Shown here: one piece after another, positions 1,657-35,300 of the stretch
Layout of the letters: every line of letters begins with the position of its first letter
Position numbering within the stretch: position 1 is the first letter of the stretch
DNA from: a virus
Lineage: Duplodnaviria > Caudoviricetes
DNA: 64,000 nucleotides
Strand: one strand, 5' to 3'
Virus record (IMG/VR): IMGVR_UViG_3300021364_000005
The notes under the pieces: model-generated
Database searches by the model: none
Seen by the model: only the letters and a program-made list of their open reading frames with translations
Told to the model about the DNA's origin: nothing
Translations under genes and position numbers: made by a program

Positions 1657-1664
1657 TATTTATA
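1657..1664 (-). promoter_or_regulatory. T4-type late promoter TATAAATA
   Basis: Exact gp55 consensus overlapping the portal stop codon, just upstream of the 1651 ATG. Confidence 0.6.
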
Positions 1665-3402
1665 CCGTTTGGTCAGTTGTTTCGGGTGCAGGTGTAGCTT
1701 CGCCGCCAGTTACAGTTTCAGGAGCAGCTCCTTCTCCGCCGTCCATGCCGCCTTCTGCATCTGGAATTTCTTCTTCGCCGGCGCCTATATCTGCACCTAT
1801 ACCTGCGCTGCTTATTCCAGCACCGCGCATTTCACCAGCTGCATCTGTTTCTGGTAACTCTAGATTTTCATCGTTTTCTTCACGCCACAAACGTTCGTTT
1901 TCGGCTATTTCTTGATCTGTCATTCCTAAGAATCGTTTCATTGCAAAACGATTTGATATAAATGGAATAGCACTCATTGTTTGGAATGTTGGTATACGTG
2001 CATTATCTACTTCACTTTGTCTATATGCTGCAAAGTTTTGTGGAGGCTGGAATTTTAAATCAAACATTGCTGTATCAATGTTTGCACCTTTTTCTAGTAG
2101 ATAACGTTTAAATTCTTGATTGAATTCTTCTGCAACTAGTCCTTGAAGTCTTTTACAGTATTCATTAAATCTAAGTTCCTGTATGTAAGCTGTGCCGACT
2201 CGTCCGTCATTATACTGCGAATTTGCATCGTCAGCGCCTGTAGGCAAGTAACTACTAGGAATTCGTAAACCACGTACGAGCTTATTAGTAAAATATCTAA
2301 GATCATCAATTTCGCCAAGATTTGTTCCTCCAGGTAATGTTTCTACTTTTGAGCCGCGGCCTTCAGCTGTTTGTGGGAAAAAGTAATCTTCGTTGATTGA
2401 TAGCGGATTATAACTTGAGTCTATGACATTAGTGCCGCCGCCTGTCTTGGATGGGATTCGTCTTTGATGTATTTCCGTTTTTACACGCTCCACAAATTGC
2501 ATAGCAAGGTGTGAAGGCATATTGCCCACATCAACGTAGAATACTCTTCTTTCTGGTGCTCTTTGAACACGGTAGATAATTATTGCATCTTCAAGCAATT
2601 CTTTTTGTTTGAATACTTTAAATATCGTTTCTAATAGAGAATTACCAAAAGGAAAATTGTTATCTAGTCCTTCTGATAAACTTAAATGTATTACGTGTTC
2701 TGCATTTACTGCTATTTCTCCATCAGCTTCGTGGAACCTACTTCCTGCCTGCTTAGGATAATTGCCTACCATTCCTCTAACACCGCCTTGAATATAACCG
2801 TCGCCGCCGCCAGTTACATTTCCATTTGTTTGGAATGGTGTTGTAGCAACCATATCCTTAAAGTTGATGTTAAAGTCTTTAATTATATATTGTTCAGGTC
2901 GTTTGCCTTCTGACTCATTAACAACAATACGTAAAACATTTGCAGGGTCAACATAAAACCACTTTTTTGTTTCCGGATCTCTAATAAAAAATGCATCGCC
3001 ATATTTAAAAATGTTACGCATAATACGGAACAGTCTTGTTTCAAAACTTTGTAGTTTGTTCCACTGTTTTAGATACTGTTCTAAAATTGTAATTTCTGTA
3101 TTTGTTGCTTTTGTATTAAAATTTAGTTGAAAACTTAAATTTGTTTCTCCGTGTTTTTGACTACAAAATTCAGCTAAAATGTCTAATGCTGCATTTACTT
3201 CTGAATCTAAATCCATAGTATTATACTGTCCGTATCTTTCAACACGGTTAGGTGATCCAGTGTATACATCTGGCAAATACGAAGAATAATTTGATCTTGC
3301 TGGTCCTGGTTGGCTGCCATTGCGAGGACTACCTAACGGACCATAAGATCCATCGCCGCCATTTCCTGTTGGTACTGGAGTAAAATATTTCTTCCAACTC
3401 AT
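1660..3402 (-). CDS. gp20: Portal vertex protein (T4 gp20-like)
   Basis: Hallmark motifs EDAIIIYRVQRAPERRVFYVDVGNMP, EDYFFP, GRGSKVETLPGG; acidic C-terminal tail. Confidence 0.93.
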   Translation of the reverse strand: MSWKKYFTPVPTGNGGDGSYGPLGSPRNGSQPGPARSNYSSYLPDVYTGSPNRVERYGQYNTMDLDSEVNAALDILAEFCSQKHGETNLSFQLNFNTKATNTEITILEQYLKQWNKLQSFETRLFRIMRNIFKYGDAFFIRDPETKKWFYVDPANVLRIVVNESEGKRPEQYIIKDFNINFKDMVATTPFQTNGNVTGGGDGYIQGGVRGMVGNYPKQAGSRFHEADGEIAVNAEHVIHLSLSEGLDNNFPFGNSLLETIFKVFKQKELLEDAIIIYRVQRAPERRVFYVDVGNMPSHLAMQFVERVKTEIHQRRIPSKTGGGTNVIDSSYNPLSINEDYFFPQTAEGRGSKVETLPGGTNLGEIDDLRYFTNKLVRGLRIPSSYLPTGADDANSQYNDGRVGTAYIQELRFNEYCKRLQGLVAEEFNQEFKRYLLEKGANIDTAMFDLKFQPPQNFAAYRQSEVDNARIPTFQTMSAIPFISNRFAMKRFLGMTDQEIAENERLWREENDENLELPETDAAGEMRGAGISSAGIGADIGAGEEEIPDAEGGMDGGEGAAPETVTGGEATPAPETTDQTV

Positions 3403-6400
3403 TTATAGACCCCTTTGAAGATCACCATTTTTAAGAGCTTTTGCACTATCTTTATGATAATCTCTACTTTCTTGTAATACTGTTAATATGCTTCTCAATG
3501 TAGTATTTAACCGATCTGCTGTTTCTGAGCTCATTCCTGAACCACCACTGTTACCTATAACATCTGCTGCTGCAACACCAGTTCCGCCTCCAAGCACTCC
3601 TTTGTTATCTTCTGACAATACATCATTTAAGTCACCTAAAACATCAACTAAACGTTCCATCGCTGTAGCATAATTGTTTAAGTTTTCAGCATTAAGACTA
3701 TTTAATAATGATAACTTTGACTCAAAGCCTGTTACATCACCAACAGCTTGCATTCCAACTGCAACATCGTTAAACTTAGCTGCGGAATTTAAAATTAAAT
3801 CTAATTGTTCACTAGCACTATCACTGCCAAAAATAGATGAAAAAATACTAGTATCCTGAGTAGTTCCGCTTAATTCAGCTGCTTTGTCTTGTAACCTTTT
3901 TAGTCCGTCTAAGAATGGAATAACTGTATTATCAATTACCTGTTCCATTCCGTCTAAGCCGCCTGACTTGTCGGTTCCTTCCGTAAAATCATTCCAGAAC
4001 TGCGGCATTAATGTTTTCATTATTTCCCCAGCTTCGAATGCTATATTGTCTAATGATTTTAAATCAAGATTACCGCCAATTGAAACATTTGAAAGAGCAG
4101 ACATTGCTTCTGTAAATGCAATAACTCCTTCAGCAGCAGTTTTTACACCAACTACATCAATTGTATGTTTTGCAAATTCTTGTATGTCTTTAAAAGGAAT
4201 CGGATCTTTTTCAGCACCAAAGAAACCTAATACTGCATCAGCAACTGCTCCTACAACAGACCCTGCTCCTGATTTAGCAGAAGCAACGCCTGCTGCACCC
4301 ATTGCATTACTAAATGCTACTAAAGCTTCTGCATTTGCTTTTACCTTTGTTGCATCAACTGTATACGAAGCAAATTTTACAACATCTTCCATTGGGTTAG
4401 ATTTTTCACCAAACAATGAAGCTAAGCCGCCAGCAATACCACTTACTAATGAATTTAATCCTGCTGTTTTTTGATCTCCTGATGAAGCAGCCATTGCAGA
4501 TTGGAATGCAATTAAAGCTTCTGAATTAGATTTTACTCTAGCTACATCAACATCGTACCCGGCAAAGCGTACAAGTTTATCGATAGGATCTTCACCGCCA
4601 AATAATTTACCAAGACCTTCAGTAATACCTCCTATCATAGAGCCTATGCCACTAGCAGCCGTCCCGGCTGCACTAGCTGCCATTGCATCGCTAAATGCTA
4701 CCATCGCTTCTGCATTTGATTTTACTTTTGGTGCGTCAATATCTGCTTGACTAAATCTTACAAGTTTATCGATAGGATCTTCTGCACCAAATAACTTGCC
4801 TATTCCTTCAGTGATACCTCCTATCATTGATCCTAAACCAGCAACTGCTGTTCCTGCACCAAATGCAGCCATTGCTAGGCTAAGATCTATCATTCCACTG
4901 GCTGCTGCACTTAATGCTGCTCCGTCTAATTCTTCAAATGATTTTAATCCCTCAGTAAAGGTAGGAAGTGCTTTACCAGTTAACCAAGCAGCGGCTGCTA
5001 TACCCGCACCTATTACAGTTATTGTTCCTGCAAGTATAGTTGCACCTACAAGTACTTGAGGATTTGCAAATGCTTTTAAGCCGGCAGCAGCACCTTTCAT
5101 AACACCTGCACCCATTTGTCCTACAAAGTTACCTATACCCTTACCTGCATTTCCTGCCATTTTAGCTGCACCAGCACCTGATTTACCACCCCCTTTAGAT
5201 GTAGGTGCAGTAGGCGATGCTCCGCCGCCGCCAAATAGTTTTCCTGCAACACCCGAAACAGTATTTGTAATAGTAGATTTAAATGCGCCTGCTAAAGCAC
5301 CTACAACTGCTTTTGCTGCAAACAGTGCTGCTATACCTCCAACAACTGCTGCGATTGTTCCCGGATTTTCAAATATAGCTTTTACACCGTCTAATAGAAC
5401 TCCGCCTAAAGCACTAAAAATTTCACCATCTGCAAGTTTTTGGGCAAAGTTTCCTAGATAATCAATTACATTTACTAGTATATCCCCGAACTTTACAAGG
5501 GCTGTGCCTATAGCATCTGCAAGTCCGCTACGAATAAATGCATCTTCTAGCTTAGTTCTTACATTTAATAGATTTTGACTAAACTCTGAAAGACCTTTTG
5601 TAACGTCACTTCTTTTTTGTTGTTCTACTTGAGCTGCATTTGCATCTGCAAGACGTTGAGTATATGTTCTTGCTTTAGCAACACTATCCATAAACTCACT
5701 AAATCCTGCTTGTCCTTGTAATTGCTGAACACCTGCTGCACCTAGATTATCTGCAAAGGCAACAATCTGAGGGGCTAGAGCTTTTAGTCTACGTTGATAT
5801 TCTTCTTGGCTTATTTCGCCTCTTGCATTTGCTTCTGCAAGGTCGCTTAATCCTGGAACAACTGCTGCTAGTCGTCTACCAAAATCACTTTGTGCTACAC
5901 CATCGCCTAGATCGGTCATTACATCTGCCATACCTTGGCCAAGCATACTAGATGTATGCTGTGTGTTAAGTGTAAAGTTTTCAAGAGCATCGCCTTGAAG
6001 CCGGGCAGCTAAAACGTTAAAGTTTGCTGCTTGCATACGCCCATTAATTTCTTCTTGAATTTGTTTACGACTTTGACCAGTAACTTTTGCTAGTCTATCA
6101 ACTTCTGTAAGATAATTTTGAGCGCCTGCTATAAGCTCTCTATCTGACTGTCCTCTTAATTTTCCTGACATTGCTTGCAAATTAATAAAACTTGCAAAGC
6201 CTTCGTTTACACCTTCTATTGTAAAGCCCATAGACAATAAGCCATTTTCTTGACTTCGTAGTGTCTTAGATAGTTTACCAAATCTTGCTGCACCATCACT
6301 TGTTGTTGCACCTAAAAGACCCATACTAGATGCATTTGTTGCAACAATTTCAGCAAACTGTTCTAAACTTAATCCAGATTGTGCTGCTGCTTGACGCATT

Positions 6401-6870
6401 GCAAGCATATTATTTCCAAACGCCGCACCAGAATCTGATAATTGTCTAAATGTATCTAAACTTGATTGGAAATAATCATTCAGAACTCCTAAACTTCCTC
6501 CTATTAACGGAATGTGTTGTGTAAAGTCTGTAAGTTCTGTACTGCCTCTTAGTAGTTCTTTACCGAAATTAGTTGCTGTGCCTGCTGCAAATCCTAACAC
6601 TTTACCAAAATTTTCAAGCGTAAATGCTTTTTTAAGAGTATTTCCAACATCTTCCATTATTGTAGTTGTTTTTTCAATTTCATCTGAAAATGATGTAAAT
6701 TGCTCTTTGGTCTTTTTTGCTTGTTTGCTTAAATCTTCTAAATTCTTTTTACCTTTAGCATCTAATCCTTTGGTTTTTTCTAGAGCAGAAACAAGGCGTT
6801 GCAGTGTTACTTCACTAGCAACGCCATCTTTACCAACGTTGGATATAATTACTTCGTCTTGATCAGCCAT
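3403..6870 (-). CDS. Tail tape measure protein
   Basis: 1155 aa, Ala/Gly-rich amphipathic helical composition with internal ~63-aa repeats; lies next to the gp26-like gene. Confidence 0.75.
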   Translation of the reverse strand: MADQDEVIISNVGKDGVASEVTLQRLVSALEKTKGLDAKGKKNLEDLSKQAKKTKEQFTSFSDEIEKTTTIMEDVGNTLKKAFTLENFGKVLGFAAGTATNFGKELLRGSTELTDFTQHIPLIGGSLGVLNDYFQSSLDTFRQLSDSGAAFGNNMLAMRQAAAQSGLSLEQFAEIVATNASSMGLLGATTSDGAARFGKLSKTLRSQENGLLSMGFTIEGVNEGFASFINLQAMSGKLRGQSDRELIAGAQNYLTEVDRLAKVTGQSRKQIQEEINGRMQAANFNVLAARLQGDALENFTLNTQHTSSMLGQGMADVMTDLGDGVAQSDFGRRLAAVVPGLSDLAEANARGEISQEEYQRRLKALAPQIVAFADNLGAAGVQQLQGQAGFSEFMDSVAKARTYTQRLADANAAQVEQQKRSDVTKGLSEFSQNLLNVRTKLEDAFIRSGLADAIGTALVKFGDILVNVIDYLGNFAQKLADGEIFSALGGVLLDGVKAIFENPGTIAAVVGGIAALFAAKAVVGALAGAFKSTITNTVSGVAGKLFGGGGASPTAPTSKGGGKSGAGAAKMAGNAGKGIGNFVGQMGAGVMKGAAAGLKAFANPQVLVGATILAGTITVIGAGIAAAAWLTGKALPTFTEGLKSFEELDGAALSAAASGMIDLSLAMAAFGAGTAVAGLGSMIGGITEGIGKLFGAEDPIDKLVRFSQADIDAPKVKSNAEAMVAFSDAMAASAAGTAASGIGSMIGGITEGLGKLFGGEDPIDKLVRFAGYDVDVARVKSNSEALIAFQSAMAASSGDQKTAGLNSLVSGIAGGLASLFGEKSNPMEDVVKFASYTVDATKVKANAEALVAFSNAMGAAGVASAKSGAGSVVGAVADAVLGFFGAEKDPIPFKDIQEFAKHTIDVVGVKTAAEGVIAFTEAMSALSNVSIGGNLDLKSLDNIAFEAGEIMKTLMPQFWNDFTEGTDKSGGLDGMEQVIDNTVIPFLDGLKRLQDKAAELSGTTQDTSIFSSIFGSDSASEQLDLILNSAAKFNDVAVGMQAVGDVTGFESKLSLLNSLNAENLNNYATAMERLVDVLGDLNDVLSEDNKGVLGGGTGVAAADVIGNSGGSGMSSETADRLNTTLRSILTVLQESRDYHKDSAKALKNGDLQRGL
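4090..4860 (-). repeat. Four ~63-65-aa tandem repeats within the tape measure
   Basis: GS..GG...G...LFG..DP...V.F.......VK.NAEA..AF..AM recurs four times. An exact 24-nt repeat sits at 4570 and 4759 (189 nt = 63 codons apart). Confidence 0.85.
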
Positions 6871-6896: not shown

Positions 6897-6904
6897 TATA
6901 AATA
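6897..6904 (+). promoter_or_regulatory. T4-type late promoter TATAAATA
   Basis: Exact consensus upstream of the gp26-like gene. Confidence 0.65.
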
Positions 6905-6928
6905 AATTAGATACATACTTGTATAATG

Positions 6929-6935
6929 TATTTAT
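6929..6935 (-). promoter_or_regulatory. Late promoter core ATAAATA for tape measure/portal transcript
   Basis: CATAAATAC on the minus strand, ~60 nt upstream of the tape measure ATG. Confidence 0.45.
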
Positions 6936-7812
6936 GCGGAGTAAAAAGGTGGAAAATACAAATCAAAATCCTTTAGGCAAGTACTTTAGACAGCCTAAAA
7001 TATATATCAAGCTACCAAGTGGTGGAAGATTCTATCCTGACGGAGCTCTTGAAGTTACAGATACTGGAGAATACCCTGTATTTGCAATGACTGCAAAAGA
7101 TGAACTGTCAATGAAAACACCAGATGCTTTGCTTAACGGTCAGGCTACAGTTGATGTAATACAAAGTTGTGTGCCGAATATTAGAAATGCATGGATGATG
7201 CCTAGTATCGACTTAGATTCAGTCCTTACTGCAATTAGAATTGCAACTTACGGTGAAACAATGGATCTTACAATAACTGTTCCTAATACAGAAATGGAAA
7301 CAACTTATCAAGTTGATTTGCGTCAAGTAATGGATACTTTTAATGGTATAGATTACGATTCTACAGTACATATTAATGATATGTCTATACATATCAAACC
7401 GTTAACCTATCAACAGTTTACACAAAATGCAATTAAATCATTTGAAGAACAAAGAGTGTTTGCTATTGTTAACGATGAAACTATGTCTGATGAAAAGAAA
7501 ATTGAAATGTTTTCTAAAAGTTTCCAAAAACTTACAGCTTTAACTGTAAATGTTGTTGCTCAAAGTATAGAAAAAATTCAAGTTGAAGAACAAACTGTTG
7601 TAAATCCTATGCATATCATGGAATTTATAAACAATGCTGATAAAAAATTCTATAATGCAATAATGGATCATATGGAACTTCAAAAATCTAAATTTGAACT
7701 TAAACCTATGACTATAGAAGCAACAGATGAGCAAATATCTGCAGGAGCACCTAAAACTTTTGATGTTCCTATTGTGTTGGATGCAGCAAATTTTTTCGTA
7801 TCAGGATCTTAA
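6934..7812 (+). CDS. Baseplate hub/tail assembly protein, T4 gp26-like
   Basis: NPLGKYFRQPKIYIKLPSGG, DALLNGQA...VIQSC, DLDSVLTAIRIATYGE motifs. True start is probably ATG 6934 or GTG 6949, not 6799. Confidence 0.7.
   Translation: MRSKKVENTNQNPLGKYFRQPKIYIKLPSGGRFYPDGALEVTDTGEYPVFAMTAKDELSMKTPDALLNGQATVDVIQSCVPNIRNAWMMPSIDLDSVLTAIRIATYGETMDLTITVPNTEMETTYQVDLRQVMDTFNGIDYDSTVHINDMSIHIKPLTYQQFTQNAIKSFEEQRVFAIVNDETMSDEKKIEMFSKSFQKLTALTVNVVAQSIEKIQVEEQTVVNPMHIMEFINNADKKFYNAIMDHMELQKSKFELKPMTIEATDEQISAGAPKTFDVPIVLDAANFFVSGS
7788..7797 (+). promoter_or_regulatory. Putative programmed -1 ribosomal frameshift site (overlapping A AAT TTT and T TTT TTC heptamers)
   Basis: Both heptamers fit X XXY YYZ in the zero frame, a few codons before the stop. 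The -1 frame is open from 7764 to 8027. Confidence 0.7.
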
Positions 7813-7850
7813 CCTGGCCGGTTGACCGTATCCTTAACGAAGTTAAGGAA

Positions 7851-8027
7851 ATGGAAAATCAAGTAAAGAACATTAAGTTAGAAACTTTTAGACTTGCTTG
7901 GCTAATGCGTGGAGGCATGACACTAGATGAAGCGTTTGCGTTAGGGTCCGAAGAAAGAGATATAGTGTCAACACTAGTTAAAGAAAATTTTGAAATAACT
8001 AAAAAAACGCAAATGCCTTACTTTTAA
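7851..8027 (+). CDS. 58-aa ORF (gp51-like/tail assembly chaperone 'T' segment), probably the C-terminus of a frameshift product
   Basis: Not in the ORF track. Translates MENQVKNIKLETFRLAWLMRGGMTLDEAFALGSEERDIVSTLVKENFEITKKTQMPYF; the frame is open upstream to the slippery site. Confidence 0.7.
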   Translation: MENQVKNIKLETFRLAWLMRGGMTLDEAFALGSEERDIVSTLVKENFEITKKTQMPYF

Positions 8028-25800: not shown

Positions 25801-26315
25801 TTGGTCAAACAATCAATCAGCAGAAGTCAATCAGCGATGAAGTAATTTATCATTCAGTTAAGTACAAGCCGTTATTTGGAAGTAAGGCTGATACAGATTT
25901 GCAAGCAAAGTTTAAGGTTGTAAAAAATGATGACATTGTAATGACAGATAACCAAGTAAAAGCTGAAGTTATTACATACATAAATGAATTTTTTGCTTTA
26001 GAAAATTGGGACTTTGGAGATACATTTTATTTCCAAGAACTAGCAGCATATGTTATGAATAGGCTTACACCTAATATAAAACAAATTGTAATTGTACCTA
26101 CTTCTGCAAACCAAGTTTTTGGAAGTTTATTTGAAATAAAAGCAGAAGCAGATGAAATTTTTATTAGTGCAGCAGAAGTTGATGATGTAGAGATTATATC
26201 TGGGGTAACAGCTACTAGATTGAAGGCACAAGGTGATGTAATTACTGCTGATACAAATTCAGCAGTTGGCGTACAAAGCGGTGCAACTAACTTAACTATT
26301 GGAGGTTATGAATAA
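22881..26315 (+). CDS. gp6: Baseplate wedge protein gp6-like (extended)
   Basis: DFKAYDFDTLK, DYIESSE...LIDMIAF, RESVLRLAR, QNRMVTGEDY. Confidence 0.85.
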   Translation: MSSTDRQNRLLVTEDWKRVYQSFRNADFKAYDFDTLKRTMITYLRENYPEDFNDYIESSEYVALIDMIAFLGQNLSFRIDLNARENFIELADRRESVLRLARLLSYNASRNKAAEGLLKVESIKTTEDIIDSNGNNISRQTVLWNDSTNSDWYEQFVRILNAALPTTNKFGRPVSKATIDNIPTQKYRVNGASSDIPVFRFQKSINGKNLPFEVTSCELTDSEILEEPPLPGNNVGFVYRDDNRGFGSSNTGFFFKFKQGILEDGAFNISAPATNQTVSIDAVNINNEDVWLYGLNSSGIETTLWTKVDSVKGNNVLYNNLTSSQKNIFGVLTKLEDRVDLIFSDGVFGNLPQGSFRTYFRVSANEELNITPASMQKINIDVDYISANNTEETLSFELALKYSVLNAAASETNDSIKQNAPAVYYTQNRMVTGEDYNIVPLTVSQEIVKTKSINRVSSGISRYFDLVDATGKYSKTNIYGSDGILYKEYFTDKQGFTFSTRNDIENILLSTVEPILAGKYIRNFYFDKFLRIDFSLSEYLWKQKETKTNQSTGNFADGALQNLPLKTGSFTSTNLKYLTIGTLVKFAPRAGYVFQTDEDNKQVIRGTELKENQVEYLWTKIVSIKNQGDAEGDILLNDVIPTDAVLQELIPALTTTIPDDVKTQMINRIFVYKTFGLRYDYLTERWRVVTENNVNFADDFGLGRAGDNSNQSLDASWLLLFETNGESYTISTRSMRYVFESDAEVRFYFDNRDKIFDPKTGQSLIDNINILSINKKLDDTSTYNFTKDFRWEVSNSFRDSEGYVSSKKVEVSFFDSDDDGVVDDPDIFEQIVLPNINSDDKYVFLEKYNPSSDVDDYKYVDSSKFYIVPNLSIGTSAYNTGDIFFALDTKSFYVLNGNNFDITNDYRAYVGRDKIKFHYIHNADESYRIDPSSTNIIDTYLLTKTYDTEYRKYLAGDLTLLPLPLSSDQLFLNFGQTINQQKSISDEVIYHSVKYKPLFGSKADTDLQAKFKVVKNDDIVMTDNQVKAEVITYINEFFALENWDFGDTFYFQELAAYVMNRLTPNIKQIVIVPTSANQVFGSLFEIKAEADEIFISAAEVDDVEIISGVTATRLKAQGDVITADTNSAVGVQSGATNLTIGGYE

Positions 26316-26317
26316 GT

Positions 26318-29300
26318 ATGTCTGAGAATGACCAAAAAGAATATCCAGTAGATGGAAATAATGTTCCTTCTAGTAAATTTTTACCAAGATATTTTAGAAC
26401 ACTTCCTAACAAAAAGTTTTTATCTGCAACGTTTGACCAAATGGTGCAGACAGGTACAGCTGAAAAATTAAATGCATACTATGGAGACACTGTTGCACCT
26501 GGATACAATACAAAAGACCCATACGTAACTGATGATATAAAAATTAGAAATGATTATCAGTTTTCACCTGGTACAGTTATTGAAGATGATTTAGGCAATG
26601 TAAATTTCTATAAAGACTACATTGATTACATAAACCAAATTAAAAATCTAAAAGGGACTGTAGACAATCATAACAATCTAAACGAAGCTGAATTTTATAG
26701 TTTAAATCCTCATATAGATGCTGATAAGTTTGTTAACTATAGAGAATACTATTGGTTAGCGTATGGTCCACAGTTAGTTAATGTAGCTGGTCAAGGAAAA
26801 GAAGTTGTAAGTACGTTTACAGTTACAAAGAAAGACAATGTAGATAACTTTTCATATGTGTTTAGTCCAGATGGAATAACTGATAATCCTGACATTCAGC
26901 TTATCAGAGGTCAGACCTACACATTTGAAATAGATGCTCCTGATATGCCAATGACAATTAGAACACAGCGTCCAGGCACAAGCGAATTTTCTTACACTGA
27001 TGGTGTTACACAAACAGAAACAGGATTTACTTTCAAAGTTCCTGAAAATGCACCAGAGGTACTATTCTACGTAAACGAAAACGATATAAATGCAAGCGGT
27101 GTATTTAAGATTATAAATGCAGAAGATAATTCAGAAGTCGATGTTGATTTAGAAGTTATTGGCAAGAAAGCATATAAAGGCGGTAATGGTGTAGAATTAT
27201 CTAATGGAATGAAAATTAGATTTACTGGAGATGTAACTCCTGCAAAATATGCAGAAGGAGAATGGTACGTTGAAGGAGTAGGTGATAAGATAGTTCTTAT
27301 TAGTGCAAATGATTTGTTTATACCTACTACTAATTTACAAGATGTAGATGTTCCATTTGATGCTAATAATTTTGATAGATTACCGTTTGATGATGCAAGC
27401 GGTTTCCCTGCACAAAAAGATTACATAGTAGGAAACAGATGTAGTAGAGATACAAACTACTGGGCAAGAAGCAATAAATGGTTTCATAAGTCTGTCATTG
27501 AAGCTTCAGCAGCAGCTAATAAACAACCTGTAGTTTTAAATGAAGCTCTAAAAGCAAAAAAGCCTATTATAGAATTCAATCCTCATTTACGTTTACATAA
27601 TAGTGGTACAATAAAAAAGCTAGATGTTGATCTAGTAGATACTATTACTACTGATGTATTTTCTACAATAGAAGGAAGTTCTGGATATAATATTGATGGA
27701 ATAGATATCGTTGACGGAATGCGTATTTTGTTTTTAGGTGACACTGATGTACTAGTCAAGAACAAAATTTATGAAGTTAAATTTATACGTTTTATTAACA
27801 ATAGACAACTTACTTTACAGCCAACAGAAGACACAGATCCTTTAGTAGGAGAAACGCTGCTTTGTAAGCAAGGCACAGATAACAAAGGATATATGTATTG
27901 GTTTGATGGCACAACTTGGAAACGATCACAAGAAAAACCTACAGTAAATCAATCTCCTTTATTTGAGTTGTATGATAATGATGGTATTCAAATAAGCACA
28001 CTTGAGAGTGTGTCTCAATTAGGAACCAAAATTTTCTCATACAAAACTGGTAATGGTGTAAATGATCCTGAATTAGGATTTCCACTAAGTTATAGAAGTC
28101 TTGAAAATATAGGTGACATTGAATTTGAATTTAATTTATTAAGCGATGTAATTACATACCAAAGACAAAATGTTACAGAAAGTATTGAAAGTGATCAGTT
28201 ACTTTTAAGAAAATATTCAGATAGAGAAAACTTTGAATATGTTAATGCTTGGGTAAAAGGTAAAGAACTATCTGTACAACCTGTAATTAGAGAATATTTT
28301 GCTGAAATAGATCAAACTAATTTTGATATTGATGTTTATGAAAATAGTGCTAATGTAACTGATTTATGGATAAGAGTCTATCAAAATAATAAATTGCTTG
28401 TAAACACTAAAGATTATGACATTGTTAATTTTGATAATATGGCAACTGTTGTTTTAAAAAACAAAGCATCAGAAAATGATCAGATTATAATCAAAACAAA
28501 TAGTGCTAATGCAAAAACAAATAATGGACATTATGAATTACCTACTTCGGTAGTCAATAACCCAAATAATGAAAATATAACACAACTAACCTTTGGCGAA
28601 TTTACAGACCATGTAAGAACTATCGTTGAAAGTTTAGAAGATATTGGCGGAATTTTTCCTGGACAAAGTAATTTACGTGATGCAGGAAATGTTTACGACA
28701 GGGGAACTAAATTTGTTCAACATAGTGGAATGTTTAATTTAGCAAATTTCCACCTTATAGATGATAATGCAAATATTATTAAAGCAATAGAGTTTGCAAA
28801 ACGTGAATACGGAAAATTTAAGCGTGAATTTTTAGATGTTGCAAATCAATTAGGGTTTGATGGCGATATTAAAGATCATGTAGATGCTGTTTTAGAAAGA
28901 ATTGCAAAAGATAAAAACAACTCTATGCCATTTTACTTTAGTGATATGATTGGGTACGGTAAAGGTTTTGAAACACAACATAAAGTTTTTGATGAAAATA
29001 ATAGATTTTATCCTTTATCACAAAAATTCAATTTAAAAGAACTATCTACTAGGGCAGTTTGTGTTTATCATAATAGAGTACAGATAGCACACGGTCAAGA
29101 TTACACTTTTAATGATGATGGGTTTATTGTTTTAGATGACAGACTTGTTGTTAATTACAATGATACAATAGACATAGTTGAATATAGTTCAACTGACGGT
29201 TCTTATATTCCTCCTACACCAAGCAAGTTTGGGCTATTTCCTAAATATGTTCCAGGAAAATATCACGACCATACTTTTTTAGAAGCACAAAATGTTGTGC

Positions 29301-32300
29301 AAGGGCACGATGGTAGTATTACTATTGCATACAACGACTTTAGAGACGATTTACTTGTTGAACTAGAAATGCGTATATTCAATAATATAAAAGTTGAATA
29401 TGACGAAAGTATTTTTAACATACATGATTACATAGGTGGAGAATACAGAACAACAAAGTTTTCACAGCAACAGATAGATAATCCATTTATTGACGATTTT
29501 ACAGATTGGCTACAGCTTGTAGGTAATCCAGACTATACAGAATACGATTCTTTCTTTAGTCAAGCTAATCCTTTCACATTTAATTATAGTGCAAGTAATT
29601 CCGCAAATAATAATAGCTTACCAGGATTTTGGAGAGGAATATACAAGTGGGCATATGATACTGATCGTCCGCATTCTCATCCTTGGGAGGTTTTAGGTTT
29701 TAGTATAGAACCTAATTGGTGGAAAGAAGTTTACGGCCCTCGTCCGTATACTGTAGACAATGTTCCGTTATGGACAGATTTAGAAAAAGGTATTGTTAGA
29801 GAACCAGGAAAAGCTGTTAGATTTAGAAGTAAATTTGCTAGACCAGGATTAGCAAGTTTTCCTCCTGCAGATAGTAGAGGCGAAATACAAAATCCTTTAA
29901 ATAGTGGATTCCTAAAAAATTACGCCAACAGTCAAATTAAAACTAAATTTAAGTTTGGCGATCAAGCACCAACAGAAGCAGCTTGGAGACGTTCTAGTGA
30001 TTATCCATTTGCTTTATTAAAAAGCATGATTATAAACAGACCTGTACATACGTTTGGTATTGCTTTTGATAGAAGCAGAGTAAAAAGAAATTTTGCTGGA
30101 CAGTTGGTATATGGTGATACTAATAAAAGAATTAAAAAAGAAACTATTGCATTTCCTAATAGTTTAAGCTCAACAGACAGAGTGCAAACAGCAGGATTAG
30201 TAAATTACGTTGCTGCATTAATACAGAACGATGTATCTACTCAATATGACGAATATGTTTCTAATATCCAACGTGTAAATAACAAACTTGGATTACGTGT
30301 TGGCGGCTTTACAAATAAAGAAAAATTTAACTTATTATTAGACAGCAGGTCTCCTTTTAATACCACAAATGTTTTTATTCCACAAGAGAATTATAAAGTC
30401 TTTCTTAACAAATCTACTGCGTTTGACGTAGTTACGTATAGCGGTGTTATAATAGAAAAAGTAGCAAGCGGATTTATTATAAGAGGATATGATAGATTTA
30501 ATCCTGTATTTCCTATATATCAATCTGTTCCTGCAAGTAACGATCCTGTAATGCGTGAAGGTGGTACAAGCGAGAACTTTATAGATTGGGATGAAAACAA
30601 ATTATATTTACAAGGAAACCTTGTAAGATATGAAGGTAGATTTTTTAGAGCTAGAGAAGAACATACATCAAGCGAAAGATTTGATGCAGATTTATTTGTT
30701 GAAGTAAAAGAAGTTCCGGTAGTAGGCGGAGTAAATGTAACTGTGCCGCAAAACTTTAGAGAGCATTTATCATATGTTGATTACGGAACAACATATGCCA
30801 CTGTTCAAGAAGTAATTAACTTCATTGCTGGATATGAACAACACTTAATTAAATCTGGATTTATATTCAACTCTTATAGTCCCGAAAGCGAAACAATACA
30901 AAACTGGCGCATGAGTATGAAAGATTATCTATTCTGGACTACACAAAATTGGCAAGAAAATAGCGTCATTACACTTAGCCCATTAGCAGAAACTGTAAAA
31001 TGGTTTAAAGATGGATATATTGTTGATAATATTTTTAATGAGATTTATGCAACTGCACCATTGAATAGTAATGGCAGACCTATAAATCCAAAAAATTTAA
31101 GTTACAGTAGAGTTGAAAAAGAATTTATTTTACAACCTAAAGATACAAATGAAGGTATCTATCTAGCAAAATTACCTTTAACCCAAAAAGAACATATTGT
31201 TCTACTTGATAACAAAACTATATTCAAGGATGTAATATATAATAAAGAGCAGGGCTATAGACAACAGCGTATTAAAGTTATTGGATATAGATCAAGTGAC
31301 TGGGACGGAAGTATTAACGTACCTGGATTTATAATCGACGATGTAACTATATTAGATTGGAATGAAAATACAGATTATAGTATAGGCGATGTTGTAAAGT
31401 ATAAAAAAGATTATTATGTTGCAAAAGAAAATGTTCCGGGCAATACTACATTAGACTTAAATTATTGGGAAGTATTATCAGGTAAACCTGAAAACGGATT
31501 GTTTCCAAACTTTGATTACAAAATAAATCAATTTGCAGATTTTTATGATTTAGATACAGATAATTTTGATATAGAACAGCAAAAAGTTGCCCAGCATCTT
31601 ATTGGCTATCAAAAACGTGAGTACTTACAAAACATTCTTAAAGACGATGTTAGCCAATACAAGTTCTATCAAGGATATATTCAAGATAAAGGCACAAAAA
31701 ATGCACTAACAAAGTTATTTGATGCACTAAGTTCGTCAGGTGAAGATAGTTTAGAGTTTTATGAAGAATGGGCTGCAAGAGTAGGTTCCTATGGAGCCAC
31801 AGACGGCATTAAAGAACTAGAGTTTATTTTAGACGAATCTAAATTCCAATTAGATCCGCAGCCTATCATTATCACAAACAGAGACGAAGGCAGAGCTTTA
31901 GATCTTGTTTATAGACAGCCTATTACTGATGTATACTTGGCACCCGAAGATTATGATTATAGAAATGTATTTCCTACAAAGAATTTAAAACAATATGTTC
32001 CAACTGCTGGCTATGTTAATTCAGACGATGTTGATTATGAAATAGCAACCTACAATGATATTTTAACACTTGATGCAGCATCTATATTAATAGATCAATA
32101 TGTGTGGGTCGGTTTAGATAAAGATAATGACTGGAATGTATTCAAGGTTGAAAATACTGATTTAAAAATTGGTATTAATGACTACCAAACTGATACAAGG
32201 CTAACATTTTATAAAGAACATAATTTAGAAATTGGCGATATTTTTATCATAGCTACAGAAAAAAGTGGTGAAGAAAAGTTAGTTAAAGTTAAGAATATTG

Positions 32301-35300
32301 AAAATGAATATGTCACTATTGATAAAATAGATATTACTGAAACTGACGTACCTATTAGGAAGTTTGTATCTAAAAGATATACTAATATAAGTAATTTTGC
32401 AGCAGCAGTTGATAGCACTACTATTAACGATTTAGCATGGGTTGACCAAGTAGAAAATGAAAATACTTGGGGAGTTTACGAAAAAGGAAGTTATAATTAT
32501 AGCAAAGTTTCCGAATTAGATAATACAGGAAAAACAGGATATTACTTTAATGATATATCTTCTGATCAAAGAAATGTTTTACTTGCTGTAGGATATACAG
32601 GTGATAATCAAGTTGAGGTGTTTTCAAGAGCAACTGATACTTCTAACTTAGTAATAGAAGGTAATATACTCGAAGATACAACAGTAGCAAGTAATCAAAG
32701 TTTTGGTAGTAGTGTTGCAGTTAGTCCTGACCAGAAGTATATTGCTGTAGGAAGCCCTGATGCAACAAGTATTAAAACAAACCTTATAGGTTCATGGAAT
32801 CCAAACACAGCGTATGCAGTTGGTGATATTTTAAAACACAACAATAGGTATTGGACTGCGCAACGACCAATACTTGCTAGTTCAGGTCCTCAATCTTATA
32901 ATACCTACGAACCATATCCTATACTTAAAGATAACTTATCCGATAGTACTGAAGCTAATTTTTTAGTTGCAGGAAACTATCCTCTTACAAATACAAGGGC
33001 TAACCATTTTTTAATTAGAGCAACAGATGTACAATTTAGAGCAATACCGGTAGGGAGTACTCTACATTTACATTGGAACAGGTTTAGCGTAAGCCATATT
33101 AATCCAACTTTACGAAGAGATCCTTTTGAAGGCACAGTAACTGGTTTAGATTATAATTGGCTTACAGGTGCTCATGTTATTTCCGATAAAGTAGATATGA
33201 TTCTTAATATTCCTTTTGCTTTGCTTTCGGTTGCAGTTGGTGATATATTGCAAACAAGCACAGGTGAAGGAGAAATAAATTATGTTTATCAAAACGGAAA
33301 TGGATTTATAGTATATCTAAAAAATACAACAGGACAATTTGCAGCTACAGGAAAAATTTATAATTCAGCTAATGACGAGATTGGCGATTATGAATACGAA
33401 ATACCAGACGATACGCATACAAGTTTAGGCGGCTATTGGATGATTAGTACTAATAGTATTAGTGCAGGCGGTGTAGACTTTATAGATGTAATAGTTGATA
33501 ATTCTCCAGGGCTTATTATTAAAGATGTAAAGCAAGCAGGAGATTTGACTGCTGTAGAAAGTTACTACAATGTTACTGAAGATGTTGGTGTCGTAGGAAC
33601 TATATCCAATGGCAACGAAAAAGTATCACTTATAGGTAAGTTTAAAGACCCAGATACAGGATATCCTGCTCCAAGCGGATACGAATATAGAAATTTATGG
33701 TTTGTAAGACTAGGGTCTACAGCTCCTACATTTAATATTGGCGATTCGATTAGATTACAAGAAAATACTTTCTTGCAAGATATAGAATGGGAAAATGAAT
33801 TTCCAATAATAAATGATAACAGTGATCCAATTTTTGATAATAACCACGAAGTTGTGGAAAAAATTGACGGTTATATAAGAATTCAATTACAACCAGATCA
33901 AGTAGGAACGCATAACTTTGTAAAGGGCGATCAATTAGAAGATGCTAACACTGGCGCAATTTTCAATATATTCCATGCTACTATTGATGCTGGGTTTTTA
34001 ACGCAGACATTGTATGTTAATATTGACGGTACAAGTCCTGTTCAAACATTTAGTAACGGTAGCGATTATGGCGACAGCACAAGAGTTATTCGCAGACGTA
34101 GCGGAGAGGTAAACAGAGACGCAGGATTTATGCAAGAATCAAGTGTAGCAACAGCAGGCGGTTCGATATCTCCTTTATATGTTTTTGATTCAAGACAGCA
34201 CCTTGCTAATCCTGCACTAATTAATTATGATTTGCCTGTCTACGGCACTGATTTATATTATGGTGCTGAATACTGGATTAGACCTCAAGGTAGAACAGAA
34301 CTAGGCGATGCTAGAGCAGCAAATGAACCTACACCAAATAATGCGGATTGGTTACTTACAACTAGCATTGATGTAATACCTACAGGCGGAACATTATATA
34401 CAGGAACAGGATTTGTAAGTGTTTATGAAAGACAAGATATAGGTGTATATGCATTAGAGAAAAGATTTGTTTTACCTTTCAATTTTGCTAATGTTGGTAA
34501 AAATTTAGATTTCAAAATTGTTAATGGTACATATGTCCTTTTCGTAGGTGCTCAAGATAAATTACTATTTGTTAAAAAAGGAACTGAAGGAAGTAGAACA
34601 TTTAATTGGGAAGTAAGTTTAGATAAAGACTTTAGAGATGTATTCTCAATGAGTGCTGAATATTATATAGGCGATGTTGTAATTTATAATGCCGAATTAT
34701 ATAGAGCAAAAACAAATATAGCAAGCGGCAGTTCATTTAATATTCTAAATTGGGACTTAATAGATAACGATATTGATTATACAGGTTATGTTCCTAGACC
34801 TACTACAGTTGCTGGTAATGATAGTAGCTTACTTTCGTTGTTTACTGATATCGATAGTGTAGCTGCTGATTATGAACTTAGCGATAACGGACAAGTCCTT
34901 GCATTATATGCAACAAGAGATGATACAGATCCAAATGTTACACAAAATGATAAAATAGCTGTTTATAGATATGTAGATAATGCATATAGACTACAAAACG
35001 TTATAGATATTCCAGACGATAGTGTTAACGATCAGGAGTATAAGCATAATTTTTCAATGTCTTCGGATGGATCAAAAATTGCAGTTGGATTATATAAATC
35101 CGATGCAAATGGTTTATACGATGCAGGAAAGGTTTTAGTTTACGAATATCAAAGTGCATCACTTGGTTGGATTTTAATTGACACAATTATTAGTCCATCT
35201 AACGATGATTCTGAAAACTTTGGTTATGATGTTGCTTTTGTAGGGAACAGTTTAGTAGTAAGTAGTTTGTACGGAGATAATAGAAAAGACTGGACACTAT

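What the first reader, a model, noticed from the sequence alone, without database searches (positions are those of the whole stretch)
7764..8027. Programmed -1 frameshift fusing a T4 gp26-like gene to a hidden downstream ORF (lambda G/GT logic in a T4-type phage)
Seen: the gp26-like ORF ends GCA AAT TTT TTC GTA TCA GGA TCT TAA and carries two overlapping canonical heptamers (A AAT TTT 7788-7794, T TTT TTC 7791-7797). The -1 frame opens just upstream (TGA at 7761) and runs stop-free to 8027: FFRIRILTWPVDRILNEVKEMENQ...QMPYF, giving ~360 aa instead of ~290 aa. A hairpin (TCAGG/CCTGG, 7801-7817) begins 4 nt after the site, and its loop could pair with 7843-7848 (possible pseudoknot). Known: G/GT-type frameshifted tail chaperones flank tape measure genes in many long-tailed phages, and T4 encodes gp26 and gp51 separately. 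Inference: gp26/gp51-like proteins are the T4-lineage tape-measure chaperones, produced here by recoding.
Basis: partly seen in the sequence, partly recalled or inferred. Interest (0 to 1): 0.8.

Follow-up and report, generated by a model that had tools for sequence, protein, structure and literature searches.

The report
Frameshift in phage tail-chaperone gene
A tail-assembly gene of this uncultured giant marine phage very probably makes a short and a long protein because some ribosomes slip back one base at a TTTTTTC run; the signal is real and strongly conserved, but the principle (T4 gp26/gp51 as tail assembly chaperones, made by recoding in T4 relatives) was already published in 2022.

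Summary
The gp26-like gene (6949-7812, PF12322) ends in an in-phase T_TTT_TTC (7791-7797). The -1 frame stays open to 8027 and encodes a conserved 76-residue helical domain.

All 100-odd relatives examined keep the heptamer, whatever the neighbouring codons. These include 80/80 IMG/VR loci, cultured jumbo phages (RaK2, 121Q, CBB, PA5oct, Atu_ph07, XacN1), cyanophages and KVP40. No start codon is conserved for the downstream frame, which is usually closed three codons upstream of the heptamer.

Some marine relatives, like T4 (genes 26 and 51), instead carry a short gene plus an in-frame long gene whose junction is colinear with the predicted slip product. Three of these four short genes have a non-slippery site.

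The extension is homologous to the gp51 C-terminus. A different stem-loop (7803-7834), five bases after the heptamer, shows covariation and explains a strong AGG codon bias.

The interpretation matches Vladimirov, Gautam and Davidson (Virology 2022), which I could only see through citing papers. This scan has also reported the same thing in at least 33 other genomes. Verdict: a real, ordinary new member of a known kind.

The parts
6949..7812 (+). gp26-like baseplate-hub / tail assembly chaperone gene, short form (287 aa, 0 frame)
   Evidence: PF12322 at E=1.3e-10 and phrog_150 'baseplate hub' at 1.5e-15. GTG start with GGAG 7 nt upstream. Identical to called protein P0248. AF2 model pLDDT 87.
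7791..7797 (+). slippery heptamer T_TTT_TTC (0-frame codons AAT TTT TTC), the conserved shift site
   Evidence: Invariant in 80/80 IMG/VR loci. T_TTT_TTY in 16/16 jumbo loci and in cyanophages, a pelagiphage and KVP40. The preceding codon always ends in T although its amino acid varies (N, S, D, T, H, R, A, V). Among the four short genes checked in genomes with a separate long gene, three have a non-slippery site (T4 and L035 TTC TTT, L118 TTT TTA) and L117 keeps TTTTTTC with its -1 frame closed.
7788..7794 (+). overlapping heptamer A_AAT_TTT; it would give the same protein but is not conserved
   Evidence: It is lost in relatives whose preceding codon is AGT, GAT, ACT, CAT, CGT or GCT.
7810..7812 (+). 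0-frame stop codon (TAA) ending the short form
   Evidence: In most relatives the stop is only one codon after TTC.
7797..8027 (+). -1 frame extension read after the slip (76 codons, RIRILTWP...QMPYF, plus TAA): a helical domain homologous to the gp51 C-terminus
   Evidence: Ungapped alignment from FF onward in 14 distant phages. Column entropy by -1-frame codon position is 1.17/0.71/1.48 before the first ATG. A profile search found 316 relatives, about 16 of them C-terminal domains of 319-351 aa in-frame proteins. hhalign links it to T4 gp51 residues 202-247 through the cyanophage extensions.
7851..8027 (+). the 58-aa ATG ORF that gene callers see; in my reading only the C-terminal three quarters of the extension
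   Evidence: The ATG is absent in L010. Database ORFs start at many different positions of the profile (1, 4, 7, 11, 21, 28, 35, 39).
7803..7834 (+). stem-loop 5 nt downstream of the heptamer. Pairs: AGGAT 7803-7807 with ATCCT 7830-7834; C7808 with G7828; TTAACC 7809-7814 with GGTTGA 7820-7825. dG -8.7 kcal/mol. Candidate frameshift stimulator.
   Evidence: Across 63 relatives the outer helix is 70.6% paired, against 25-48% when slid. There are 41 double changes against 23.9+-3.9 in shuffles (0/500), and G to A in the 5' arm is compensated by C to U. About half the relatives fold into 10-12 bp hairpins of -12 to -21 kcal/mol at this position. The Arg codon in the 5' arm is AGG in 55/66 sequences, against a background of AGA 136 to AGG 12. 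The window's own version is weak (z -0.6).
   Evidence: 65.7% paired against 65.4% in shuffles, with no excess of double changes. The pseudoknot partner at 7843-7847 is likewise unsupported.
3403..6870 (-). divergently transcribed 1155-aa Ala/Gly-rich repetitive protein, the probable tape measure (T4 gp29 counterpart)
   Evidence: Same position as RaK2_00088, annotated 'similar to ... tail tape measure protein', and as the large virion structural proteins of PA5oct, 121Q and CBB. phrog_14121 'virion structural protein' at 1.9e-5. The function is inferred from synteny.
6897..6904 (+). TATAAATA, matching the T4 late-promoter consensus, 45 nt upstream of the start
   Evidence: Sequence. The consensus comes from established knowledge of T4 late promoters and was not tested here.

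Best explanation
Window 6949-7812 encodes the short form (TAC-N, gp26-like) of the baseplate-hub / tail assembly chaperone of a T4-related giant marine phage. Most ribosomes terminate at TAA 7810. A minority slip back one base while decoding UUU-UUC on U_UUU_UUC (7791-7797). Both tRNA-Phe re-pair with UUU, probably helped by the stem-loop that begins 5 nt downstream (7803-7834). These ribosomes then read CGU AUC AGG... to 8027. This yields a 359-aa long form (TAC-NC) that carries an extra 76-residue helical domain equivalent to the C-terminus of T4 gp51. One gene therefore supplies, in a fixed ratio, the two proteins that T4 encodes as genes 26 and 51. By analogy with lambda G/GT, the shared N-part would coat the tape measure (the neighbouring 1155-aa protein) and the extra C-domain would recruit tube subunits.

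Shown here: the signal, its conservation, coding in the -1 frame from the heptamer onward, homology to gp51, and natural two-gene and fusion equivalents.

Inferred: that the slip is ribosomal, its efficiency, the role of the stem-loop, and the chaperone activity.
For: (1) PF12322 and phrog_150 match the 0-frame product.
(2) TTTTTTC is invariant in 80/80 IMG/VR loci. The following G is invariant too, and the -1 frame is usually closed 3 codons upstream, so entry is only possible at the heptamer. T_TTT_TTY is present in 16/16 jumbo loci and in cyanophages, HTVC008M and KVP40.
(3) The codon that is ATG in a few phages is ATA, GTA, CTA, ATC or TTA in most, so there is no conserved start. Called ORFs start at many different positions.
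(4) The extension aligns without gaps from FF onward and shows third-position variation before the first ATG.
(5) In-frame 319-351 aa relatives have the junction ...LDxSxxF-RxxL..., colinear with the predicted slip product. In 3 of 3 contigs long enough to tell, they sit just after a short PF12322 gene.
(6) T4 has two PF12322 genes, while nine frameshift-type phages have one each. The window has one N-domain and one extension.
(7) Of the four short genes that sit beside a separate long gene, three have a non-slippery site: T4 and L035 TTC TTT, L118 TTT TTA.
(8) Extension to gp51 C-terminus: cyanophage extension vs gp51 P=2.5e-7; cyanophage vs jumbo extension P=4.3e-5; direct comparison P=0.01. 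All three are in one register.
(9) Stem-loop with 5-nt spacer: covariation, strong folds in about half the relatives and the AGG codon bias.
(10) The site is the only heptamer in the window with a long -1 frame.
(11) The literature agrees. Vladimirov et al. 2022 is cited in PMC10885494 and PMC12846349, and the KVP40 record notes the similarity to gp51.
Against: There is no direct evidence of the trans-frame protein: no proteome, ribosome profiling or reporter data. The window's own stem-loop is weak (-8.7 kcal/mol, z -0.6), and both of its arms also encode conserved peptides (RIL and EIL). FF is a conserved protein motif, so part of the T-run is explained at the protein level. Nine of 66 close relatives, plus Atu_ph07, Phosso and 121Q, have an ATG overlapping the stop, which would allow coupled reinitiation there. 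The TAC fold was not clearly recovered: the best match was HK97 gp13 (2OB9) at Z 4.4 for a relative's model, and nothing specific appeared for the window's own model. [quoted passage not shown]
Confidence: 0.8

Rival explanations
1. Transcriptional slippage. RNA polymerase adds one extra U while copying the T-run, so a fraction of mRNAs carry the extension in frame. The same long protein is made, but the recoding happens at the RNA level.
For: Some relatives have longer runs: T7 in XacN1, T8 in HTVC008M and T9 in RsoM2USA. RM378 has T7 with the extension in the +1 frame, which a run-length change explains easily. The title of Vladimirov et al. [quoted passage not shown]
Against: In the window's clade the run is only six T and is always closed by C (80/80). 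Selection for polymerase slippage should instead favour TTT TTT. The run is always in the X_XXY_YYZ phase. A covarying stem-loop sits at the classical 5-nt spacing for ribosomal frameshifting. Citing papers describe the T4-like sites as -1 frameshift signals.
Confidence: 0.1
2. Two separate genes. The downstream frame is translated on its own, from ATG 7851 or by termination-reinitiation near the stop, giving a free small gp51-like protein and no fusion. This is how GenBank records annotate it in P-SSM2, KVP40, 121Q, CBB, XacN1 and Phosso.
For: There is an ATG at 7851. ATGA- or TAATG-type overlaps occur in Atu_ph07, Phosso, 121Q and 9/66 close relatives. The downstream frame is annotated as a separate CDS in those six records.
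Against: The 18 residues upstream of ATG 7851 (RIRILTWPVDRILNEVKE) are conserved as protein. The ATG is missing in L010. At the stop-overlap position most relatives have ATA, GTA, CTA or TTA. The AAGGA before ATG 7851 is only 1 nt away from it. Natural in-frame fusions and T4 gp51 show that the domain works attached to the N-domain. The invariant in-phase heptamer and its loss in most two-gene phages (three of four short genes) would remain unexplained.
Confidence: 0.07
3. Chance: a T-rich codon pair in an AT-rich genome followed by an accidentally open frame, with no function.
For: The genome is AT-rich, and 145 in-phase heptamers occur in the window.
Against: It is the only heptamer with a long -1 frame. 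It is conserved in more than 100 loci down to about 15% protein identity in the extension.
Confidence: 0.01

Closest known systems
[quoted passage not shown]
   Same: It concerns the same protein family (T4 gp26 as TAC-N, gp51 as TAC-NC). According to citing papers, it covers both poly-T slippery sequences in TAC-N genes of T4-like phages (PMC12846349) and the short gene plus fused long gene in some T4-like phages (PMC10885494).
   Different: I could not read the paper. I therefore cannot say whether it covers the jumbo-phage clade (RaK2, 121Q, PA5oct, Atu_ph07, XacN1 and the marine group of this window), the stem-loop described here, or the independently arisen tandem short and long genes. 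None of the GenBank records I inspected annotates a slippage join.
Phage T4 gp26 and gp51 (baseplate hub assembly chaperones; PF12322, with gp51 also carrying PF28602)
   Same: The N-domain family is the same, and the extension is homologous to gp51 residues 202-247. Both genes lie beside the hub and tape-measure genes.
   Different: T4 uses two paralogous genes and encodes FF as non-slippery TTC TTT. T4 gp26 also has an internal start (26'). The window's protein lacks the CxxC...CxxC zinc-ribbon cysteines.
Lambda gpG/gpGT and the conserved -1 frameshift of tail assembly chaperone genes (Levin, Hendrix and Casjens 1993; Xu, Hendrix and Duda 2004, cited)
   Same: One gene gives a short and a long product by a -1 slip near the 3' end, next to the tape measure gene. 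The logic of a fixed ratio of two forms is the same.
   Different: There is no detectable sequence similarity, and the fold match to a TAC is only weak (2OB9, Z 4.4). The gene is divergent from the tape measure gene instead of directly upstream. The heptamer is U_UUU_UUC, whereas lambda's is G_GGA_AAG (from my own knowledge). The N-part is about twice as long.
T7 gene 10A/10B frameshift (G_GUU_UUC)
   Same: A -1 slip of tRNA-Phe on a U-run ending in UUC in a phage late gene; PMC12846349 compares it with the T4-like TAC sites.
   Different: Different protein (capsid) and a different upstream triplet. The details of T7 are from my own knowledge and were not tested here.

Membership tests
Programmed -1 ribosomal frameshift cassette | In-phase X_XXY_YYZ slippery heptamer | tested here: met
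   T_TTT_TTC at 7791-7797 is in the 0 frame. It is invariant in relatives.
Programmed -1 ribosomal frameshift cassette | -1 frame open from the site and under protein-coding selection, without a start codon of its own | tested here: met
   The alignment is ungapped from FF onward, variation is highest at third positions, an upstream stop usually lies 3 codons before the heptamer, and no start codon is conserved.
Programmed -1 ribosomal frameshift cassette | Stimulatory RNA structure 5-9 nt downstream | tested here: met
   A stem-loop starts 5 nt after the heptamer. It is supported by covariation and codon bias across 63 relatives. The window's own copy is weak (-8.7 kcal/mol, z -0.6), and the stimulatory effect itself is untested.
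Programmed -1 ribosomal frameshift cassette | Trans-frame protein actually made | not testable with these tools
   Only assembled contigs of public runs are available, with one RNA run holding 12% of the sampled words. No proteome exists for this uncultured phage.
T4 gp26/gp51 family (PF12322 with or without the gp51 C-terminal domain) | PF12322 domain | tested here: met
   E=1.3e-10, 41.8 bits against a cut-off of 24.5.
T4 gp26/gp51 family (PF12322 with or without the gp51 C-terminal domain) | Long form carries the gp51 C-terminal domain | tested here: met
   Profile-profile chain: cyanophage/KVP40 extension vs gp51 residues 202-246, P=2.5e-7; cyanophage vs jumbo extension, P=4.3e-5; direct, P=0.01. 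All are in one register. PF28602 itself is not in the local Pfam copy.
T4 gp26/gp51 family (PF12322 with or without the gp51 C-terminal domain) | Both a short and a long form are provided per genome | tested here: met
   T4 has two genes. Nine frameshift-type genomes have one gene plus the heptamer. Marine relatives have tandem short and long genes. The window has one N-domain and one extension; the rest of its genome is not held.
Tail assembly chaperone (lambda G/GT type) | Adjacent to the tape measure gene | tested here: met
   The gene lies next to the 1155-aa probable tape measure (3403-6870) but is transcribed divergently, unlike the same-strand G-T-H order.
Tail assembly chaperone (lambda G/GT type) | TAC 'spiral' fold of the N-part | tested here: inconclusive
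   For the model of relative P0120 (pLDDT 94), HK97 gp13 (2OB9) was the only phage hit: Foldseek prob 0.28; VIA Z 4.4, rmsd 4.0 over 95 of 104 residues. For the window's own model (pLDDT 87), the list was filled by helical-hairpin matches. Accepted TACs are about this far apart (Z 4.5 in PMC9603447).
Tail assembly chaperone (lambda G/GT type) | Binds the tape measure (N-part) and the tube protein (C-part) | not tested
   No complex prediction was run; biochemistry is needed.

The most novel reading that the evidence does not exclude
The frameshift itself is known. What my evidence leaves open as unreported is the following. (a) The whole jumbo-phage branch (RaK2, 121Q, PA5oct, Atu_ph07, XacN1 and a very abundant marine clade) uses it, unannotated in the records I inspected. 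(b) The marine clade has its own covarying stem-loop stimulator 5 nt downstream. (c) The 'one gene plus slip' and 'short gene plus long gene' solutions have been exchanged at least twice independently, in the T4 lineage and in marine jumbo phages, with the slippery codons lost in three of the four short genes checked.
Probability: 0.45. Interest if true: 0.4.

Novelty: new member of a known kind. Interest (0 to 1): 0.3.

Why it matters
For annotation: in the cultured jumbo-phage and T4-like genomes I inspected, and very likely in thousands of metagenomic ones, the long form is missing. Its C-terminal part is either called as a spurious small 'hypothetical protein' or 'gp51', or left unannotated. 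A join at TTTTTTC would fix this.

For biology: the result supports the idea that every long-tailed phage, T4 relatives and giant phages included, needs a short and a long tail assembly chaperone. The repeated swap between frameshifting and gene duplication offers a natural experiment on why the ratio of the two forms matters.

It does not open a new kind of system.

Tried and rejected
- blastn of 6900-8100 against GenBank phages found no match.
- Pfam and PHROGs gave nothing for the window's extension. phrog_18291, which has no function assigned, matched three other members only.
- The window's genome is not held.
- RNAalifold on the region downstream of the heptamer gave no consensus structure. 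The stem was found by eye in alignment A4 and then tested.
- I rejected A_AAT_TTT as the functional site because it is not conserved.
- Foldseek against the PDB gave no significant match.
- VIA-align lists were dominated by generic helical matches.
- A profile search against PDB sequences found nothing.
- The search for related loci with the N-domain alignment A3 failed for lack of a conserved stretch.
- Public runs are available only as assembled contigs, which cannot show rare U insertions, so I did not use read laying.
- The 2022 Virology paper is not held.
- The CBB virion proteome paper gave no usable statement on this gene, because its numbering differs from the RefSeq record.
- I did not attempt a complex prediction.

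Full report
**What is there.** The window comes from an uncultured large marine phage related to T4. It carries a T4-type portal gene at 1660-3402 and late-promoter-like boxes. On the plus strand, 6949-7812 encodes a 287-aa protein of the T4 gp26/gp51 family: PF12322 at E=1.3e-10 and phrog_150 'baseplate hub'. Its likely start is GTG 6949, with GGAG seven bases upstream. The same protein is on record as P0248.

The gene is transcribed divergently from a 1155-aa Ala/Gly-rich protein (3403-6870, minus strand). That protein occupies the place of the tape-measure-like virion proteins of RaK2, PA5oct, 121Q and CBB.

**Check of the observation.**
- The gene ends GCA AAT TTT TTC GTA TCA GGA TCT TAA.
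- The -1 frame is open from 7764 to 8027.
- A slip at either heptamer gives the same 359-aa protein, with junction ...DAANFF|RIRILTWP....
- Among 145 in-phase X_XXY_YYZ heptamers in the 40 long ORFs of the window, only these two are followed by more than 43 open codons in the -1 frame.

**Conservation of the site.** I collected relatives from several sources:
- seven IMG/VR loci found with the N-domain;
- 80 more found with the extension, out of more than 535 candidates;
- eight cultured jumbo phages: Atu_ph07, Phosso, PA5oct, RaK2, 121Q, CBB, XacN1 and RsoM2USA;
- four classical T4 relatives: P-SSM2, S-PM2, pelagiphage HTVC008M and KVP40.

Every one has T_TTT_TTY in the 0 frame at the same place, inside a conserved C-terminal 'FF'. 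The 0-frame stop follows 3-30 bases later, and the -1 frame then runs for 59-84 codons.
- In the window's own clade the sequence is TTTTTTCG in 80 of 80 loci.
- The codon before the run always ends in T, although it encodes N, S, D, T, H, R, A or V.
- The -1 frame is usually closed by a stop only three codons upstream of the heptamer, so ribosomes can enter it only at the heptamer.
- A_AAT_TTT is not conserved.

**The downstream frame is coding from the heptamer onward.**
- The extensions of 14 phages, down to about 15% identity, align essentially without gaps starting at FF.
- In the stretch before the window's first ATG, column variability by -1-frame codon position is 1.17/0.71/1.48, the pattern expected of coding sequence.
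- The position that is ATG in a few phages (an ATGA overlap with the stop) is ATA, GTA, CTA, ATC or TTA in most.
- ATG 7851 is missing in L010.
- Gene callers place the start of this ORF at eight or more different positions.
- Independent initiation therefore cannot explain the conserved N-terminal part.

**Natural fusions and two-gene versions.** A profile of the extension, searched against 1.84 billion representative proteins, found 316 relatives. Most are small ORFs, but about 16 of the top 150 are 319-351 aa proteins that carry the domain at their extreme C-terminus.
- Their N-parts are gp26-like, and their junction (...LDxSxxF-RxxLI...) is colinear with the predicted slip product.
- In all three contigs long enough to tell, such a long gene directly follows a short PF12322 gene.
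- T4 likewise has two PF12322 genes (26 and 51). Atu_ph07, PA5oct, 121Q, RaK2, S-PM2, P-SSM2, HTVC008M, KVP40 and RM378 have one each. The window holds one N-domain and one extension.
- Where a separate long gene exists, the slippery codons are mostly gone from the short gene: TTC TTT in T4 and L035, TTT TTA in L118. One relic TTTTTTC in L117 has a closed -1 frame.
- A tree of the N-domains places T4 gp26 and gp51 as sisters inside the T4/cyanophage branch. The marine tandem genes fall inside the jumbo branch. The duplication solution therefore arose at least twice.

**Identity of the extension.** Profile-profile comparison gives three links:
- cyanophage/KVP40 extensions against T4-type gp51 residues 202-246: P=2.5e-7, probability 93%;
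- the same cyanophage/KVP40 extensions against the jumbo extensions, including the window: P=4.3e-5;
- the direct comparison of jumbo extensions with gp51: P=0.01.

All three share one register. The gp51 homologues carry PF12322 plus PF28602. The KVP40 record already notes that its small ORF resembles the last 40 residues of gp51.

An AlphaFold model of a natural long form (pLDDT 94) shows the extension as a helical domain.

**RNA signals.**
- The alignment of 63 distinct relatives instead shows a longer stem: AGGAUCU, beginning five bases after the heptamer, pairs with AGAUCCU about 25 bases further on.
- That stem is 70.6% paired, against 25-48% when slid. It has 41 double changes against 23.9+-3.9 in shuffles (0/500), and G to A changes are compensated by C to U.
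- About half of the relatives fold into 10-12 bp hairpins of -12 to -21 kcal/mol at this position.
- The stem explains why the Arg codon in its 5' arm is AGG in 55 of 66 sequences, although these genes otherwise use AGA over AGG by 136 to 12.
- In the window the structure is 7803-7834, interrupted and weaker: -8.7 kcal/mol, and not significant on its own.

**Mechanism and rivals.** I consider -1 ribosomal frameshifting on U_UUU_UUC, aided by the stem-loop, the best explanation (about 0.8).
- Transcriptional slippage on the T-run would give the same protein and is not excluded, especially for relatives with T7-T9. The invariant six T closed by C, the fixed phase and the stem-loop argue against it here.
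- Independent translation of the small ORF alone is unlikely, for the reasons given above.
- The chaperone function is inferred. My fold searches recovered a tail assembly chaperone (HK97 gp13, 2OB9) only weakly: Z 4.4 over 95 of 104 residues for the relative's model, and nothing specific for the window's own model.

**What is known.**
- PMC10885494 states that some T4-like phages carry a short and a fused long TAC gene instead of frameshifting.
- PMC12846349 refers to poly-T slippery sequences in the TAC-N genes of T4-like phages.
- Both cite Vladimirov, Gautam and Davidson, Virology 2022. The paper itself is not held.
- T4 reviews list gp26 and gp51 as hub assembly chaperones.
- This scan has reported the same feature in at least 33 other genomes. 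Several of those reports said no publication existed, and that statement should be corrected.
- None of the GenBank records I inspected annotates the join.

**Verdict.** This is a real, strongly conserved recoding signal and a new member of a known kind. It adds modest detail: its use across the jumbo-phage branch, a clade-specific stem-loop, and repeated replacement by gene duplication.

Noticed in passing
L032 (Rhodothermus phage RM378, record 25929-26459 region): The single PF12322 gene ends TCC TTT TTT TGG AAT AAG TTA TGA. The gp51-like extension (76 codons) lies in the +1 frame, not the -1 frame, after a run of seven T. This could be a +1/-2 shift, transcriptional slippage, or a homopolymer error in an old record.
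   Followed up: no
L028/L033 (P-SSM2), L029 (S-PM2), L030 (HTVC008M): In the cyanophages and the pelagiphage, GGAGG or GAGGG lies about 10 nt upstream of the heptamer (TTG GAG GGA TTG CAG AGT TTT TTC). This is the spacing of the Shine-Dalgarno-like stimulator of the E. coli dnaX frameshift. These phages lack the AGG stem-loop of the marine jumbo clade.
   Followed up: no
L035 5105-7032; L117 820-2744; L118 1959-3790: Marine relatives carry tandem short and long PF12322 genes instead of a frameshift. In the tree they arise inside the jumbo branch, independently of T4 genes 26 and 51.
   Followed up: partly
window 6949-7812 compared with alignment A5: The window's clade lacks the two CxxC pairs (zinc-ribbon-like) that T4 gp26 and gp51, Atu_ph07, Phosso, 121Q and the marine long-form paralogues have. 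The corresponding segments read ...TVPNTEME... and ...GAPKTFDVP....
   Followed up: no
window 7832-7848: A perfect 7-bp hairpin, CCTTAAC-GAA-GTTAAGG, ends 3 nt before ATG 7851. It is part of the window's minimum-energy fold and competes with the 3' arm of the conserved stem. It is not obviously conserved in relatives.
   Followed up: no
window 26318-41878 (+): A single open reading frame of 5186 codons lies in the structural region.
   Followed up: no
L035 1-2709 (-): In a relative contig, the T4-type portal gene carries an intein (PF14890 between two Portal_T4 hits) and a faint HNH hit.
   Followed up: no
window 6897-6904 (+): TATAAATA, the T4 late-promoter consensus, lies 45 nt upstream of the gp26-like start. 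It sits in the 78-nt gap between the divergent tape-measure-like and chaperone genes.
   Followed up: no
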